The position numbers and the translations under genes were made by a program. Shown here piece after piece: positions 1 through 4,899 of a DNA stretch of 38,438 nt (position 1 is the stretch's first letter; every line of letters begins with the position of its first letter). The stretch is from IMG/VR virus record IMGVR_UViG_2534682287_000008, positions 1 to 38,438 of that record, one strand, 5' to 3'. Source of the DNA: a virus (Duplodnaviria > Heunggongvirae > Uroviricota > Caudoviricetes). The notes below the pieces were generated by a model. That model had not been told where the DNA came from and did no database searches. It was given only the letters and a program-made list of their open reading frames with translations.

Positions 1-1149
1 ATGCTCACCGTTAAGCAGATTGAAGCAGCAAAGCCGAAAGAAAAACCATACCGCCTTCTCGATGGTAATGGACTGTACCTTTATGTCCCTGTATCCGGGA
101 AAAAGGTATGGCAGCTTCGCTACAAGATTGACGGTAAGGAGAAAGTCCTAACCGTAGGAAAATATCCGCTAATGACTTTGCAGGAGGCAAGGGATAAGGC
201 ATGGACTGCGAGGAAAGACATCTCGGTTGGCATCGATCCGGTAAAAGCGAAAAAGGCTTCGTCTAACAACAATTCCTTTAGCGCCATTTACAAGGAATGG
301 TACGAGCACAAGAAGCAAGTCTGGTCAGTAGGCTATGCAAATGAACTTGCAAAAATGTTTGATGACGACATTTTACCTATCATCGGCGGCCTTGAAATTC
401 AGGATATTGAGCCGATGCAACTGCTGGAAGTAATCCGCAGATTTGAAGATCGAGGTGCAATGGAGCGAGCCAACAAAGCCCGCAGAAGATGCGGCGAGGT
501 TTTCCGTTACGCTATTGTCACTGGTAGGGCTAAATATAACCCGGCACCTGACCTTGCTGACGCCATGAAGGGATACCGCAAGAAGAACTTCCCGTTTCTT
601 CCAGCAGACCAGATCCCGGCATTCAACAAAGCACTTGCAACATTTTCAGGAAGTATCGTATCGCTCATTGCGACCAAAGTTTTACGCTACACAGCCCTAA
701 GAACGAAAGAGCTTCGTTCCATGCTATGGAAGAACGTCGATTTTGAAAACAGGATTATCACCATCGACGCCAGTGTGATGAAGGGCCGCAAGATTCATGT
801 AGTACCGATGTCAGACCAGGTGGTTGAACTTCTCACTACGCTAAGCTCAATCACCAAACCAGTATCAGAGTTTGTTTTTGCCGGTCGCAACGATAAGAAG
901 AAGCCAATCTGCGAGAACGCGGTACTGCTTGTGATCAAACAAATCGGCTATGAAGGTCTGGAAAGCGGTCACGGATTCAGGCATGAATTCAGCACGATTA
1001 TGAACGAGCACGAATGGCCTGCTGATGCTATTGAAGTGCAACTGGCACATGCCAACGGCGGTTCTGTGCGTGGAATTTACAACCATGCTCAGTATCTCGA
1101 TAAACGCAGAGAAATGATGCAATGGTGGGCGGACTGGCTTGATAGATAA
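1..1149 (+). CDS. int: Tyrosine integrase, P4-type
   Basis: 382 aa; N-terminus MLTVKQIEAAKPKEKPYRLLDGNGLYLYV typical of P4-family integrases; C-terminal catalytic region with HxxR...Y context; ATG at position 1. Confidence 0.9.
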   Translation: MLTVKQIEAAKPKEKPYRLLDGNGLYLYVPVSGKKVWQLRYKIDGKEKVLTVGKYPLMTLQEARDKAWTARKDISVGIDPVKAKKASSNNNSFSAIYKEWYEHKKQVWSVGYANELAKMFDDDILPIIGGLEIQDIEPMQLLEVIRRFEDRGAMERANKARRRCGEVFRYAIVTGRAKYNPAPDLADAMKGYRKKNFPFLPADQIPAFNKALATFSGSIVSLIATKVLRYTALRTKELRSMLWKNVDFENRIITIDASVMKGRKIHVVPMSDQVVELLTTLSSITKPVSEFVFAGRNDKKKPICENAVLLVIKQIGYEGLESGHGFRHEFSTIMNEHEWPADAIEVQLAHANGGSVRGIYNHAQYLDKRREMMQWWADWLDR

Positions 1150-1332
1150 AGATCACTCATATATCATTGAAAAATGATATAAATTTTATTTACATGTGTT
1201 ACTATTTTTATTGTAATTGTAGTTTGATTTAGAATATAAACGGAAAAACAAATGAGATGGCACTCATTATTCCAATTTTAGAATAAGCAATATTAATATT
1301 GTCATATATAATTTTAATATAAGGGCGTAAAA

Positions 1333-2340
1333 ATGCAGTGGGCTTATAATTTAAGAGTATTTGCCATTTTTATGGTTGTTGTTATACATGTCACAGCTGG
1401 GTATGTTACTTTCGCAGATACTAACCCAAGCTTCTATGGATCTACACTTTGGTGGTCTGCAAATATTCTTGATTCATTCAGCAGATGGAGCGTTCCTGTT
1501 TTTGTTATGTTGAGTGGTTACTTTTTGATAAATGGAACGGATTCTACAATTAGTTTTTACAAAAAAAGAATGACGAGGATATTGATCCCAGTATTGGCAT
1601 GGACGATGATATATATCACATGGACAATATTTAAGTCCTACATCAAAGGTGATATAACTCTAGGGGTTATAACATCAATAAAACAGCTTTTAGCTGGTAA
1701 ACCATATTACCATATGTGGTTTTTATATATGATTCCTTTTTTATATATTATAACGCCTTTTTTAAGAAAAATAATTGCAAAATCAAGTGATAATGAAGTA
1801 ACAATCCTCATTGTAATATGCTCTGCATTGCCATTGATTAATCTAATATACAACAACGTTGTTGGCATGGAAAACAACAAACCGCAATTTTTCATGATAA
1901 CATTTTTAAATTATATAGGCTACTTCGTTATTGGTGGTGTGTTTAGGGCAAAGAAAACAGAAAAACTTTGCATGTGTACTATATTCACATTAATTTCATT
2001 GATAATAACGGCTATTTTAGCTTATAAGTTTGGTCGAGTGTATTTCTATGACTATTTAAGCTTAAATGTTTTTATTTCATCGGTGTTAATATTCGCGATA
2101 TGTTCTTCAATCAATGGTGGAGAGTCGTTATTATCAAAAAAACTAGCAAGCCTAACACTTGGAGTGTATTTAATACATCCTATTTTTATTGAGCTTTACT
2201 CTTATTTATTGAGACATTTATTAAAAATAAATGCATTCTCTATTGTATACATGCTCTTTATGATAGTGGTAGTTTTTGCATCTTCTTTAGCAGCTAGCTT
2301 GATTATTAGTAAATTAAAGTATTTGAATAAGATAATATGA
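1333..2340 (+). CDS. oac: O-antigen acetyltransferase, acyltransferase-3 family (Sf6 Oac-like); lysogenic conversion gene
   Basis: 335 aa polytopic membrane protein; motif RWSVPVFVMLSGYF; strongly AT-rich relative to the rest of the phage; sits between int and tailspike. Confidence 0.8.
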   Translation: MQWAYNLRVFAIFMVVVIHVTAGYVTFADTNPSFYGSTLWWSANILDSFSRWSVPVFVMLSGYFLINGTDSTISFYKKRMTRILIPVLAWTMIYITWTIFKSYIKGDITLGVITSIKQLLAGKPYYHMWFLYMIPFLYIITPFLRKIIAKSSDNEVTILIVICSALPLINLIYNNVVGMENNKPQFFMITFLNYIGYFVIGGVFRAKKTEKLCMCTIFTLISLIITAILAYKFGRVYFYDYLSLNVFISSVLIFAICSSINGGESLLSKKLASLTLGVYLIHPIFIELYSYLLRHLLKINAFSIVYMLFMIVVVFASSLAASLIISKLKYLNKII

Positions 2341-2345
2341 CCAGC

Positions 2346-2376
2346 AATGCCAGCGCACTTGTCATGCGCTGGCATT
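2346..2376. terminator. Hairpin between convergent oac and tailspike genes (possible bidirectional terminator)
   Basis: Inverted repeat AATGCCAGCGCA-cttgtca-TGCGCTGGCATT; flanking T/A-runs are weak. Confidence 0.45.
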
Positions 2377-2378
2377 TA

Positions 2379-4517
2379 TTAAAATGCCATGGGGAAGTTT
2401 GCTGTTAACGGTATAATAGAATATTCTATAGATGTCGGTGGATTTCCTGATGAATAATAATTACCCCTTGCCTGCAAAACAATTAGCCCACTAGAACCTG
2501 TATAACCAGCTCTAAATGATATTTGTTTTAAATTGTTGTCAGTTGTGTTTGGGTCTATTCTTTCGTCTATTGCTGGCTTTAGATCTTGCGCATCGTGAGC
2601 TCCAGAAGAGACAACAAATGTCTGATAGTTATTTTTAATCCCACCATTAACTTTTACCATTAAGAGATAAAGACATCTGTCCGAAGCGTATCCATTATTT
2701 ATCGCGTAATCCAATTCAATTCTTATTATACTCCCATCTTGTTGAGCTGGTATTTCCTTTCTTAAAAGATATGGGCCACGAACAGAGTTATCGTAAGAAC
2801 TTCCAATATAATTACTTCCACCAACGAATGCGGAATTCATTCTCCATATATCCTCAGCAGAAAATAGACCAGAGCTTATATAATTACCACTCCAGACATT
2901 TCTATTTCTTTCAGGTCTTGCATCTATCACCATACCATTACCACCAAAAAGACAATTTCCATTAAAAACGCTCCCAGCGAAATCAGTAGGATTGATGCAT
3001 TGCACTCTAACAGATTTGTCAACTTCACCTGTAATAATTTGAATTATGTTGTTGGATACGTTATTACCAGCACACCAATCACCACCAAATCCATTGTTAT
3101 TATTATCTAATTTTTGCCCTGAAATTCCGTTAAATGTACGTTGCTCTGAGGGGTTATCAGATCCAACATAATAAATAACATTGTTACATACATTTACCAG
3201 TGATGTTCTTAACCATATTCCAAAATCATTAAGTGGGTTTTTTTCAAAATGAAAAACGTTATTACTTATAGATGATCTTCCTCCAAGACCAACTCGTTCA
3301 CCGCCACTTATTAATAACGTCATGGCTTTTACAGAAACATTCCACATTGTGTTATTATCAATAACACATTCAAGACCTCCGGTGAACGTATCAATTTCAC
3401 ATGATGATTCTTCATTCCTATTTATGAACCTATTTCCTGTTGTTTCCCCTCCTACTGTTGTGCTTCCTATTTTATATATATCTGTATTATAACCTGATTG
3501 CATAAACACATCGAATGTATTTCCTGTTACATGGAACATTGATTTTCTTGGTGTTCCCAAATCTACAGAATCAAGCGTATCACCAAGTATTGTTAAATAT
3601 GGGAATATGCTTTCTCCTGGCTGCATATCTGAATTTGATATATATAAATCTGTATTATCATCAGTCGTACAATAGTTATTTTTAACTGAAATATGTACGC
3701 TGGTTGGGTCCTGACAGTTAACCATGATGTAGCCAACACCGCAGTTAAAGCATTGCATATCTTTTATCACCACGCGCGTTGGTAAATTCGCCAGCCCATC
3801 AGGGTAATCATTGAAAATTACCTGAGGACGCTGGGTGTGGTATGCATTTGCGGTGAACTTACCGCCGATAATCTCTACTGATTTTGCGCCAAGCGGATGG
3901 AAAATATAATCAATGCCATTGAAGGTAAATTCTCCAGTAGAAGCATCGATAATGATGTCTCCTGGGATGGTGACGGGGGCTGTTACATCGTACACACCTG
4001 ATGCTACAACTCTCGTTTTGTTTGCAACCGCATAATTTACAGCTGCCTGTAATTTTTCTGACGCATTACTTCCGGGGAATACCTCGGGGACAACCCATTT
4101 GATGGCATCCTGTACCGTGCCATATGGCATAATCCCAACAAGACCAGCGCCGTCTTGATTAGAAAGCCTAATCTCAAATTGATCAGGGGCGTACTTCAGC
4201 ACATTTGGGAATTTGAACTGCTGTGCACCATACGCATCATAAACAGCCATAGAATGGCCTTGCTCAGTTACGAATTTGGCAATCTGTCCGTTATATACCG
4301 GATATCCAGCAGCATTAATGATGATTGGTTGCGAAACAGGAACGTGAGAGCCGTCTTCGTTCTCCACATAAACCTGAATCTGGTTTTCTGGATTTACCGG
4401 ATCAGTGTCAATTTTACCGATATAAATTTTACCATTGGCTACGGCTTTAAAAGAACGAGCCATAGTGAAGAGTTGCGAAGGCATGCTTACCACAACATTT
4501 GCGGTGATATCTGACAT
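2379..4517 (-). CDS. Tailspike protein: conserved P22-type N-terminal head-binding domain, divergent C-terminal receptor-binding domain
   Basis: N-terminus MSDITANVVVSMPSQLFTMARSFKAVANGKIYIGKIDTDPVNPENQ matches P22-family tailspike head-binding domain; ATG at 4515-4517 with GGAG 8 nt upstream; ORF track's longer start is probably upstream extension. Confidence 0.85.
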   Translation of the reverse strand: MSDITANVVVSMPSQLFTMARSFKAVANGKIYIGKIDTDPVNPENQIQVYVENEDGSHVPVSQPIIINAAGYPVYNGQIAKFVTEQGHSMAVYDAYGAQQFKFPNVLKYAPDQFEIRLSNQDGAGLVGIMPYGTVQDAIKWVVPEVFPGSNASEKLQAAVNYAVANKTRVVASGVYDVTAPVTIPGDIIIDASTGEFTFNGIDYIFHPLGAKSVEIIGGKFTANAYHTQRPQVIFNDYPDGLANLPTRVVIKDMQCFNCGVGYIMVNCQDPTSVHISVKNNYCTTDDNTDLYISNSDMQPGESIFPYLTILGDTLDSVDLGTPRKSMFHVTGNTFDVFMQSGYNTDIYKIGSTTVGGETTGNRFINRNEESSCEIDTFTGGLECVIDNNTMWNVSVKAMTLLISGGERVGLGGRSSISNNVFHFEKNPLNDFGIWLRTSLVNVCNNVIYYVGSDNPSEQRTFNGISGQKLDNNNNGFGGDWCAGNNVSNNIIQIITGEVDKSVRVQCINPTDFAGSVFNGNCLFGGNGMVIDARPERNRNVWSGNYISSGLFSAEDIWRMNSAFVGGSNYIGSSYDNSVRGPYLLRKEIPAQQDGSIIRIELDYAINNGYASDRCLYLLMVKVNGGIKNNYQTFVVSSGAHDAQDLKPAIDERIDPNTTDNNLKQISFRAGYTGSSGLIVLQARGNYYSSGNPPTSIEYSIIPLTANFPMAF

Positions 4518-4638
4518 TTCATTGCTCCAAACGAATGATATGATGCAACCATGATGTAATTGCATACCGAAATGGTACTATTGAGTGTTTATCCAGTAGG
4601 CTACGATGCCATTCCACCCAACTGGTGAGGCATCAAGG

Positions 4639-4899
4639 ATGTACAGCAAATACGACGAGGCGCAGTTTCACTTGAGACTTCCGCATGAACTCCACGCGAA
4701 AATTAAGCAGCGTGCGAAGATGAATAACAGGTCGCTGAACTCAGAGATAATTGCAGCGATTGAAGAATCATTGGCTAAACAAAGCTCTGCATCTGTTTAC
4801 ATTGACGATGCAGAGCGTATGGCAGAACAACAATCTGATATGGTTAAGAAAATTGTCTTTGGTACGCTCAAGGAGCTATATAAAAAAGACAGCAGCTAA
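4639..4899 (+). CDS. mnt: Mnt-like ribbon-helix-helix repressor (immI remnant)
   Basis: C-terminus DAERMAEQQSDMVKKIVFGTLKELYKK resembles P22 Mnt tetramerisation region; N-terminal arm QFHLRLPHELHAKIK; start chosen at MYSKYDE. Confidence 0.75.
   Translation: MYSKYDEAQFHLRLPHELHAKIKQRAKMNNRSLNSEIIAAIEESLAKQSSASVYIDDAERMAEQQSDMVKKIVFGTLKELYKKDSS

What the first reader, a model, noticed from the sequence alone, without database searches (positions are those of the whole stretch)
2379..4517. Tailspike with conserved head-binding domain fused to a divergent, AT-rich receptor-binding domain
The first about 110 residues match the P22-family tailspike N-terminal domain nearly word for word, while the remaining about 600 residues are Asn/Gly/Ser/Thr-rich (beta-helix-like) and encoded by visibly AT-richer DNA. 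This is the expected signature of receptor-domain swapping, and the specificity of this spike is unknown. Its pairing with an O-antigen acetyltransferase implies it targets the unmodified host O-antigen.
Basis: partly seen in the sequence, partly recalled or inferred. Interest (0 to 1): 0.5.

Follow-up and report, generated by a model that had tools for sequence, protein, structure and literature searches.

The report
Prophage tailspike for O153/O178 E. coli
This is an ordinary modular tailspike gene of a P22-like E. coli prophage, and all six complete E. coli genomes that carry its uncharacterised sugar-binding part have the rare O153/O178 surface-sugar (O-antigen) gene cluster, which points to its target.

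Summary
The gene is real: window 2379-4517, minus strand, 712 aa. Residues 1-113 are a P22-family head-binding domain (Pfam E 4e-64; 103/113 identical to Sf6, 83/113 to P22). The rest has no Pfam or PDB sequence match and is predicted as a right-handed parallel beta-helix plus a C-terminal beta-sandwich.

The AT-rich claim is only partly right. GC stays at 43-48% up to about aa 250 and falls to 29-38% after that. This low-GC block runs on into the adjacent acyltransferase gene (30.6% GC).

The spike is therefore tripartite:
- an adaptor (aa 1-113);
- a proximal helix segment (aa ~114-270) that is 99-100% identical in DNA to another prophage allele and 88-100% to the lytic siphophage swi2;
- a divergent distal part (aa ~271-712, 50-70% identity).

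Its specificity can be inferred. The exact spike-acyltransferase pair occurs in 3 of 5426 complete E. coli genomes, and a sister allele occurs in 3 more. All 6 are among the 16 genomes with O153/O178 wzx/wzy.

Different spike alleles sit beside different acyltransferases. The one here is not an orthologue of Sf6 Oac (25% identity).

Verdict: a new, uncharacterised member of a well-known kind. That it targets unmodified O-antigen is untested.

The parts
4179..4517 (-). Tailspike aa 1-113: P22-family head-binding (virion adaptor) domain
   Evidence: PF09008 matched 1-113 of 113, E 3.9e-64. 103/113 identical to Sf6 gp14 and 83/113 to P22 gp9. DNA is 88-93% identical to HK620, Sf6, CUS-3, IME10 and others over gene nt 1-345 only.
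3708..4178 (-). Tailspike aa ~114-270: linker, cap helix and first rungs of the beta-helix. This segment is conserved in all E. coli alleles of the RBD family and has normal GC (43-48%).
   Evidence: 99-100% nucleotide identity to the M9/E62 prophage spike and 88-100% to siphophage swi2 over aa 106-270. Megablast to swi2 covers gene nt 364-869 at 94.3%. AF2 pLDDT is 80-96 from aa 150 on, with a helix at 152-165 followed by strands.
3258..3707 (-). Tailspike aa ~271-420: the most variable stretch of the beta-helix, and where the low-GC DNA begins. It probably includes the sugar-binding or catalytic face (inference).
   Evidence: Identity falls from 100% to 50-77% against every other allele. This includes P0001 and L012, which are otherwise 93-100% identical and carry the same acyltransferase. 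Family-invariant acidic residues D286, D287, D336, D346, E374 and D376 lie here.
2382..3257 (-). Tailspike aa ~421-712: distal beta-helix rungs and a C-terminal beta-sandwich (aa ~585-705), AT-rich (29-38% GC). The stop codon is at 2379-2381.
   Evidence: GC profile and 41-80% aa identity (47-72% nucleotide) to the M9 and swi2 alleles. AF2 strands run to aa 548, a helix at 554-563, then strands 570-703. DNA from 1144 to 2774 cannot be aligned with the other cassette types.
2349..2373 (.). 9-bp GC-rich hairpin (GCCAGCGCA-cttgtca-TGCGCTGGC) between the two convergent stop codons. Candidate bidirectional terminator.
   Evidence: Read directly from the sequence. A weaker overlapping stem was picked up by the terminator scan. 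Sf6 has an annotated terminator in the same position between gene 14 and oac.
1333..2340 (+). AT3-family membrane acyltransferase (335 aa, 30.6% GC), convergent with the spike. Presumed lysogenic-conversion O-antigen O-acetyltransferase.
   Evidence: PF01757 E 2.8e-42. phrog_3333 'O-acetyltransferase' E 2.5e-60. Present in only 3 of 5426 E. coli genomes, the same 3 that carry this spike. 99.7% identical in IMG/VR locus L012, again beside a spike of this family. 25% identical to Sf6 Oac.
1..1149 (+). IntS-type tyrosine integrase. Marks the left, conserved border of the variable cassette.
   Evidence: Pfam integrase domains. Similarity to prophages with other cassettes ends at nt 1133-1143. In BKQWHE and E62 the prophage lies next to a tRNA-Arg gene beside yfdC.
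4606..4899 (+). Arc/Mnt-type repressor gene, divergent from the spike. Conserved right-hand neighbour.
   Evidence: PF03869 and PF11423. Annotated as Arc family at the same position in BKQWHE, M9 and E62.

Best explanation
Window 2379-4517 (minus strand) encodes the tailspike of an HK620/Sf6-like (P22-like) temperate podophage.

How it most likely works:
- By homology with the solved P22 and Sf6 tail complexes, residues 1-113 plug the spike, presumably a trimer, into the tail hub.
- Residues ~150-560 form a right-handed parallel beta-helix, followed by a C-terminal beta-sandwich. Together they bind the host O-polysaccharide and most likely cleave it as an endoglycosidase, letting the virion work its way down to the outer membrane.
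- The target is the O-antigen made by the O153/O178 gene cluster. This is inferred from the hosts that carry the spike.

How the gene is built:
- It is a three-piece mosaic. The adaptor is exchangeable: the same RBD occurs behind a Tail_spike_N adaptor (PF18668) and behind N-termini with no significant Pfam match.
- The proximal helix segment (aa ~114-270) is almost invariant and acts as a recombination landing pad.
- The distal, low-GC part (aa ~271-712) is contiguous with a convergent AT3 acyltransferase gene and lies in the same variable block. The whole variable block spans window ~1144-3700.
- The acyltransferase presumably O-acetylates the same O-antigen in lysogens. This is lysogenic conversion, as with Sf6 Oac, and would reduce adsorption of related phages.

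Shown: domain identity, fold, mosaic boundaries, host association, pairing with the acyltransferase.
Inferred: trimer, hydrolase chemistry, the exact glycan, the role of acetylation.
For: - Head-binding domain.
- Phage context: the rest of the window is 97% identical to podophage vB_EcoP-683R2 over 80% of the query and 96-97% to HK620 and Sf6. Gene order is as in Sf6.
- Host association: BKQWHE carries O153/O178-family wzx/wzy. Only 16 of 5426 complete genomes have them. The exact RBD occurs in BKQWHE, O178:H19 strain 2012C-4431 and CM185151; the sister allele occurs in M9, M6 and E62. All six are among the 16. The chance of 3 of 3 is about 2e-8.
- The carriers are not one inherited copy. There are different alleles, different insertion sites (next to tRNA-Arg in BKQWHE and E62, next to torT in M9), one prophage remnant versus full prophages, and human, mouse and rat hosts.
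- RBD shared across phage types: swi2 siphophage at 68.5% aa. Homologues carry PF09008 or PF18668 adaptors, or none recognised.
- Mosaic boundaries.
- Acyltransferase pairing.
Against: - No biochemical data exist, and no solved or characterised relative of the RBD was found. Pfam finds nothing on the RBD, and PHROGs files it under 'unknown function'.
- The host of this particular window is unknown, because the window is prophage only.
- The 16 O153/O178 genomes include clonal sets (M6 and M9), so there are fewer than six independent observations.
- Pairing with the acyltransferase is not strict. L012 has the same acyltransferase (99.7%) beside a spike that differs by about 30% over aa 271-420.
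- The published O153/O178 repeat-unit structure could not be read in the held literature beyond these points: it contains D-Ribf, O178 has one GlcNAc and one GalNAc, and GalNAc is the initial sugar in O178.
Confidence: 0.7

Rival explanations
1. The spike needs or tolerates an O-acetylated form of the O153/O178 O-antigen rather than the unmodified polymer. On this view the variable aa 271-420 segment tracks the acetylation patterns written by rival prophage acyltransferases, in an arms race.
For: - At least three spike alleles occur with three different acyltransferases: a 335-aa AT3 here, a 651-aa AT3-SGNH in M9 and E62, and a 650-aa AT3-SGNH only 65% identical to that in L006.
- The four carrier genomes examined (BKQWHE, 2012C-4431, M9, E62) have the same O-antigen gene organisation and an identical Gnu protein (Und-PP-GlcNAc 4-epimerase); most of the other cluster proteins are identical between M9 and 2012C-4431.
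- One allele (P0003) adds a C-terminal GDSL/SGNH esterase domain.
- The same acyltransferase occurs with two versions of aa 271-420.
Against: - Purely correlative, and the linkage could simply reflect physical adjacency within one recombination block.
- No data exist on which position, if any, is acetylated.
- In the characterised precedents recalled from the literature (Sf6, P22, epsilon15), conversion lowers adsorption of the converting phage itself.
Confidence: 0.15
2. The link with O153/O178 hosts is hitch-hiking or clonal inheritance. The real receptor would be another surface polysaccharide (capsule, colanic acid, ECA) or a protein.
For: - There are only six carrier genomes and some are clonal (M6 and M9).
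- Pas et al. 2023 (PMC10408124) describe RBP subtypes found across several serogroups that probably do not target O-antigen.
- More distant homologues occur in Citrobacter (67%) and Hafnia (48-49%).
Against: - All 6 carriers fall in a gene-cluster type present in 0.3% of genomes.
- The carriers differ in allele, insertion site, prophage completeness and host animal.
- The adjacent gene belongs to a family annotated as O-acetyltransferase, and the arrangement copies the Sf6 O-antigen system.
Confidence: 0.08
3. The beta-helix binds O-antigen without cutting it, or uses a different chemistry (lyase or esterase) rather than glycoside hydrolysis.
Against: - From my own recollection of the published structures (cited in PMC7685785 but not readable here), the O153/O178 repeat is neutral: Ribf, Gal, GlcNAc, GalNAc. 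A beta-elimination lyase would then have no uronic-acid substrate.
- Paired invariant acidic residues about 30-40 positions apart (D336/D346 and E374/D376) resemble the spacing of catalytic carboxylates in the P22, Sf6 and HK620 spikes. This too is from memory, not tested.
- Esterase spikes carry SGNH domains, which this protein lacks.
Confidence: 0.07

Closest known systems
Sf6 gene 14 tailspike (endorhamnosidase) with the neighbouring oac and int genes
   Same: The N-terminal 113 residues are 91% identical (88% over aa 1-121). Gene order is the same: integrase, AT3 acyltransferase, then a convergent tailspike with a hairpin between the stop codons. Both belong to the same P22-like phage type.
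   Different: There is no detectable sequence similarity after aa 121. The spike is 712 aa against 623. The acyltransferase is only 25% identical to Oac. The inferred host glycan is E. coli O153/O178, not the S. flexneri Y O-antigen.
HK620 gp9 (endo-N-acetylglucosaminidase, E. coli O18A1) and P22 gp9 (endorhamnosidase)
   Different: The RBD is 10-13% identical, which is generic fold similarity only. There is no sequence-level match even with a family profile.
Tail fibre QNR52424.1 of lytic siphophage vB_EcoS_swi2 and the prophage spikes of E. coli M9 and E62 (WP_073528019.1, WP_089180260.1)
   Same: The same RBD family over aa 114-709 (68.5% aa to swi2). aa ~120-270 is nearly identical in DNA. 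M9 and E62 have the same O153/O178 host genotype.
   Different: swi2 has a different N-terminal adaptor (its close relative P0012 carries PF18668). The distal two-thirds are only 50-70% identical. In M9 and E62 the neighbouring acyltransferase is an unrelated 651-aa AT3-SGNH protein. None of these proteins has been characterised.
Serogroup-specific RBP subtypes of E. coli phages (Pas et al. 2023, PMC10408124)
   Same: The same logic and pattern: an RBD moved horizontally between phage genera and prophages while keeping its association with one host serogroup.
   Different: That study lists subtypes for O26, O45, O103, O104, O111, O145, O157, O2, O8, O16, O18, 4s/O22, O77 and O78. It does not list O178, and O153 appears only in multi-serogroup examples.

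Membership tests
P22-family tailspike (Lederbergvirus-type gp9/gp14) | N-terminal head-binding domain (PF09008) | tested here: met
   E 3.9e-64, covering 1-113 of 113. 91% identical to Sf6 and 73% to P22 over those residues.
P22-family tailspike (Lederbergvirus-type gp9/gp14) | Right-handed parallel beta-helix receptor-binding body after the adaptor | tested here: met
P22-family tailspike (Lederbergvirus-type gp9/gp14) | Genomic position at the end of the late operon of a P22-like genome, between the ejection-protein genes with Mnt/Arc and the integrase end | tested here: met
   Window ORFs and similarity to HK620 and Sf6. Same order as in Sf6.
P22-family tailspike (Lederbergvirus-type gp9/gp14) | Homotrimer with O-antigen endoglycosidase activity | not testable with these tools
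   Only a monomer could be modelled, and there is no biochemistry.
Sf6 gp14, HK620 gp9 or P22 gp9 receptor-binding domain families (known specificities) | Sequence homology of the RBD to a characterised spike | tested here: not met
   BLASTP to Sf6 finds nothing after aa 121. phmmer and a family profile against PDB hit only the N-terminus. tblastn against phages finds only uncharacterised swi2 over the RBD.
O-serogroup-specific RBP subtype (criterion of Pas et al. 2023) | The same RBD subtype found in independent phages and prophages whose hosts share one O-antigen gene cluster | tested here: met
   All 6 complete genomes carrying the RBD family have O153/O178 wzx/wzy, which only 16 of 5426 genomes have. 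One carrier is a serotyped O178:H19 strain. The serotype of swi2's host is unknown.
AT3 O-antigen O-acetyltransferases of converting phages (Sf6 Oac type) | Acyl_transf_3 (PF01757) membrane domain, about 330 aa, without a fused SGNH domain | tested here: met
   PF01757 E 2.8e-42 over aa 6-319 of 335. phrog_3333 'O-acetyltransferase'.
AT3 O-antigen O-acetyltransferases of converting phages (Sf6 Oac type) | Orthology to Sf6 Oac | tested here: not met
   25% identity, pairwise E 0.005. The best phage hits are a Vibrio phage at 38.7% and phiV10 Oac at 34% over 46% of the protein.
AT3 O-antigen O-acetyltransferases of converting phages (Sf6 Oac type) | Acetylates the host O-antigen and alters phage adsorption | not testable with these tools
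   Needs LPS chemistry and adsorption assays.

The most novel reading that the evidence does not exclude
The spike and acyltransferase form one of at least three interchangeable 'attack plus camouflage' cassettes that P22-like prophages deploy on a single O-antigen type (O153/O178).

On this reading, each acyltransferase writes a different O-acetyl pattern. The variable helix segment (aa ~271-420) of each spike is tuned to the patterns it must read or ignore. The allele with an added C-terminal SGNH esterase (P0003, P0013) erases rivals' acetyl marks.

This would be a compact, naturally replicated system for studying how O-antigen modification and tailspike specificity co-evolve. The catalytic domain would also be a new glycoside hydrolase family acting on a ribofuranose-containing O-antigen.
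Probability: 0.25. Interest if true: 0.55.

Novelty: new member of a known kind. Interest (0 to 1): 0.3.

Why it matters
Modular tailspikes and neighbouring O-antigen-modifying genes are textbook features of P22-like phages, so the finding is not surprising in kind.

Its practical value is a testable assignment: an uncharacterised RBD family (no Pfam domain, no solved relative, PHROG 'unknown function') is tied to the O153/O178 O-antigen. The one serotyped carrier is a human stool isolate of serotype O178:H19. No tailspike subtype is listed for O178 in the 2023 survey of serogroup-specific RBPs (PMC10408124). Such a spike could serve as a typing or capture reagent, or as a depolymerase.

The set of allelic spike-acyltransferase cassettes on one host glycan is also a convenient natural experiment on modification-driven specificity change.

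Tried and rejected
1. Do the two main spike alleles map to the O153 versus O178 difference, that is, to presence of gnu (GalNAc versus GlcNAc as first sugar)? Rejected. BKQWHE, 2012C-4431, M9 and E62 have the same O-antigen gene organisation and an identical Gnu protein, WP_000999466.1.
2. Sequence search of PDB with the single protein and with a 24-member family profile found no RBD hit.
3. Pfam at E up to 1 on the RBD gave nothing meaningful (DUF5123, E 0.25, far below cutoff).
5. Literature on swi2's host or serotype: only passing mentions. Literature on an O178 tailspike: none in the library. The repeat-unit structures of O153 and O178 are cited in PMC7685785, but the structure tables and supplements are not held.
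6. Is the neighbour Sf6 oac? Rejected as an orthologue.
It was rerun without it.
8. The N-terminal domain is poorly modelled (pLDDT <50) because the alignment mixes adaptors. Its assignment rests on sequence identity, not on the model.
Full report
**What is there.** The finding's coordinates are exactly a CDS on the minus strand. The longest ORF is 2379-4565. The start at 4517 (MSDITANV...) matches the P22-family N-terminus and the RefSeq annotation of a 99%-identical copy (WP_112871453.1, 'phage head-binding domain-containing protein') in E. coli BKQWHE. The protein is 712 aa. Its neighbours are:
- an IntS-type integrase (1-1149, +);
- an AT3 acyltransferase (1333-2340, +), convergent with the spike;
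- an Arc/Mnt repressor gene (4606-4899, +).

The rest of the window is a P22-like prophage. It is 97% identical to podophage vB_EcoP-683R2 over 80% of the query and 96-97% to HK620 and Sf6 over the structural genes. The int / acyltransferase / convergent-spike order is that of Sf6 int-oac-gene 14. A 9-bp GC-rich hairpin at 2349-2373 sits between the stop codons, where Sf6 has an annotated terminator.

**Checking the observation.**
- Residues 1-113 match PF09008 end to end (E 3.9e-64). They are 103/113 identical to Sf6 gp14 and 83/113 to P22 gp9. Similarity to Sf6 ends at aa 121.
- Residues 114-712 have 34.6% N+G+S+T, against 24.9% in the other long ORFs of the window.
- The 'AT-rich' statement needs correcting. 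GC per 150 nt of the gene is 39, 47, 48, 43, 48, then 34, 31, 38, 29, 36, 37, 36, 37, 35. That is 44.0% for nt 1-850 and 34.9% for nt 851-2139, with the window at 46.5%.
- The compositional break is therefore at about aa 250-285, not at the adaptor/RBD junction.
- The low-GC tract continues without interruption through the acyltransferase gene (30.6% GC) to the end of int.

**Anatomy of the mosaic.** A codon-aligned sliding comparison shows three pieces.
1. The adaptor (aa 1-113) is shared at 88-93% DNA identity with many P22-like phages, but only over gene nt 1-345.
2. aa ~106-270 is 99-100% identical in DNA to the spike of prophages in E. coli M9 and E62, and 88-100% identical to the tail fibre of the lytic siphophage vB_EcoS_swi2 (megablast 94.3% over nt 364-869).
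3. From aa ~271 identity drops abruptly to 50-70%.

On the left, similarity to prophages carrying other cassettes ends at nt 1133-1143, inside the last codons of int. DNA from 1144 to 2774 (the acyltransferase plus the last ~130 codons of the spike) cannot be aligned at all. The variable block is thus window ~1144-3700, bounded by int on one side and by the conserved proximal helix segment on the other.

There is further mosaicism within the block. P0001 and IMG/VR locus L012 carry the same acyltransferase (99.7%) and a spike that is 93-100% identical except over aa 271-420, where identity is about 70%.

**The receptor-binding domain.**
- It has no Pfam domain. In PHROGs it falls into phrog_29018, 'unknown function'.
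- It has no sequence relative in PDB, even when searched with a 24-member family profile.
- The family is small: 22 cluster representatives at E<=1e-3 and 10 at E<=1e-30 among 1.84 billion proteins.
- Family members carry different N-terminal adaptors: PF09008, PF18668 (Tail_spike_N), or N-termini with no significant Pfam match. Two add a C-terminal GDSL/SGNH esterase domain.
- The AlphaFold2 model has mean pLDDT 71. The N-terminus is poor because the alignment mixes adaptors, but most 10-residue blocks between aa 150 and 530 reach about 80-96, with local dips to about 50-65. It shows a cap helix (152-165), a long run of short strands to aa ~548, a helix, and a C-terminal all-beta domain (570-703).
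The enzyme class is not resolved by structure comparison.

**Specificity.**
- The whole int-acyltransferase-spike module occurs in only 3 of 5426 complete E. coli genomes: BKQWHE, O178:H19 strain 2012C-4431 and CM185151.
- BKQWHE's O-antigen cluster carries 'O153/O178 family' wzx and wzy, with gnu upstream of galF.
- Those wzx-wzy genes occur in only 16 of 5426 genomes. All three module carriers are among them.
- The three further genomes that share only the conserved segment, and therefore carry the sister allele (M9, M6, E62), are also among the 16.
- Three of three by chance is about 2e-8. Six of six is far smaller, although M6 and M9 are clonal.
- The carriers are not one inherited copy. 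BKQWHE has a prophage remnant next to a tRNA-Arg gene beside yfdC. E62 has a full prophage at that site. M9 has one next to torT without an integrase. The hosts are human, mouse and rat.
- This is the criterion Pas et al. (PMC10408124) used to call serogroup-specific RBP subtypes. Their list does not include O178 or O153.
- I conclude that the RBD family most likely recognises the O153/O178 O-polysaccharide.
- The review PMC7685785 states that both O antigens contain D-ribofuranose. It also states that O178 has one GlcNAc and one GalNAc, with GalNAc as the initial sugar. The full repeat unit is known to me only from memory of the cited papers (Ratnayake 1994; Ali 2005) and could not be verified here.

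**The acyltransferase and the 'unmodified antigen' inference.**
- The neighbour is an AT3 protein (PF01757, E 2.8e-42; phrog_3333 'O-acetyltransferase') of the same size and position as Sf6 Oac. It is only 25% identical to Oac. Its best phage relatives are a Vibrio phage protein (38.7%) and phiV10 Oac (34% over 46% of the protein).
- The sister spike allele in M9 and E62 is paired with an unrelated 651-aa AT3-SGNH acyltransferase.
- The esterase-bearing allele P0003 is paired with a third acyltransferase, 650 aa and 65% identical to M9's.
- The four carrier genomes examined (BKQWHE, 2012C-4431, M9, E62) have the same O-antigen gene organisation and an identical Gnu protein. The alleles therefore do not map to the O153 versus O178 distinction.
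- So a spike beside an O-antigen-modifying gene is a robust, recurring design on this host glycan.
- Whether this spike is blocked by, indifferent to, or dependent on the modification is not addressed by any result here.

**Mechanism proposed.**
- Shown: adaptor identity, beta-helix fold, mosaic boundaries, host association, gene pairing.
- Inferred: a trimeric spike docks to the tail hub by aa 1-113. The beta-helix binds and hydrolyses the O153/O178 O-polysaccharide.
- Candidate catalytic carboxylates are the family-invariant D286/D287, D336/D346 and E374/D376. They are chosen by conservation and by a spacing like that in the P22, Sf6 and HK620 spikes; that comparison is from memory.
- In lysogens the acyltransferase would O-acetylate the same polymer.
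- Rivals, in order of weight: an acetyl-tolerant or acetyl-dependent spike in an arms race of cassettes; a non-O-antigen receptor, with the host link being hitch-hiking; and binding-only or non-hydrolase chemistry.

**Novelty and score.**
- The exact protein is already in public databases, on 19 contigs in a 90% cluster of 100 members. It has only generic names.
- The kind of thing is well known: a P22-family spike with an exchanged RBD next to a conversion gene. This is a new, uncharacterised member with a now-predictable specificity.
- The intragenic second breakpoint and the allelic spike-acyltransferase cassettes are a modestly interesting extra.
- Interest 0.3.

Noticed in passing
L006 2625-5465 (P0003, 946 aa) and P0013 (959 aa): Two members of the same RBD family carry an extra C-terminal GDSL/SGNH esterase domain (PF13472, E 4e-13). 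P0003 sits in a P22-like prophage next to a 650-aa AT3-SGNH acyltransferase and an integrase beside yfdC and mlaA. It is possibly a deacetylating spike, by analogy with G7C gp63.1 (recalled from memory).
   Followed up: partly
L002 (E. coli BKQWHE NZ_CP170298.1, 2447225-2452529): In BKQWHE the prophage is reduced to int, acyltransferase, spike, Arc and two gene fragments, directly followed by emrY. Intact conversion and spike genes survive in an otherwise deleted prophage, which may reflect selection for the acyltransferase.
   Followed up: no
L004 (E. coli M9 NZ_CP010196.1, 949697-962209): The sister cassette in M9 lies next to torT/torR with no integrase gene, only a 71-bp remnant of the int 3' end. 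This is a different chromosomal site from the tRNA-Arg (yfdC-side) site used in BKQWHE and E62.
   Followed up: no
L003 22075-23079; also L008, L009 and L010 at 1040-2044: All four O153/O178 genomes examined have an oppositely oriented 'NAD-dependent epimerase' gene between wzzB and ugd, outside the galF-gnd cluster. The review notes that O153 and O178 have one glycosyltransferase fewer than expected and no known Ribf precursor genes. Whether this gene is involved is unknown.
   Followed up: no
window 1139-1167: The best sigma-70-like match in the region (TTGATA-17-TATCAT, 10 of 12) overlaps the end of int, about 165 nt upstream of the acyltransferase start. Sf6 has a putative oac promoter in the corresponding place. 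This is a consensus match only.
   Followed up: no
P0016 (Citrobacter freundii), P0025 and P0026 (Hafnia paralvei): Homologues of the RBD at 67% (Citrobacter) and 48-49% (Hafnia) identity occur in other enterobacterial genera. Some have the same head-binding adaptor, which hints at related O-antigens in those hosts.
   Followed up: no
window 4518-4565: The ORF extends 16 codons upstream of the accepted start (MQLHHGCIISFVWSNE-MSDIT...). The extension has no counterpart in P22-family spikes and is not annotated in RefSeq, so it is probably not translated.
   Followed up: partly
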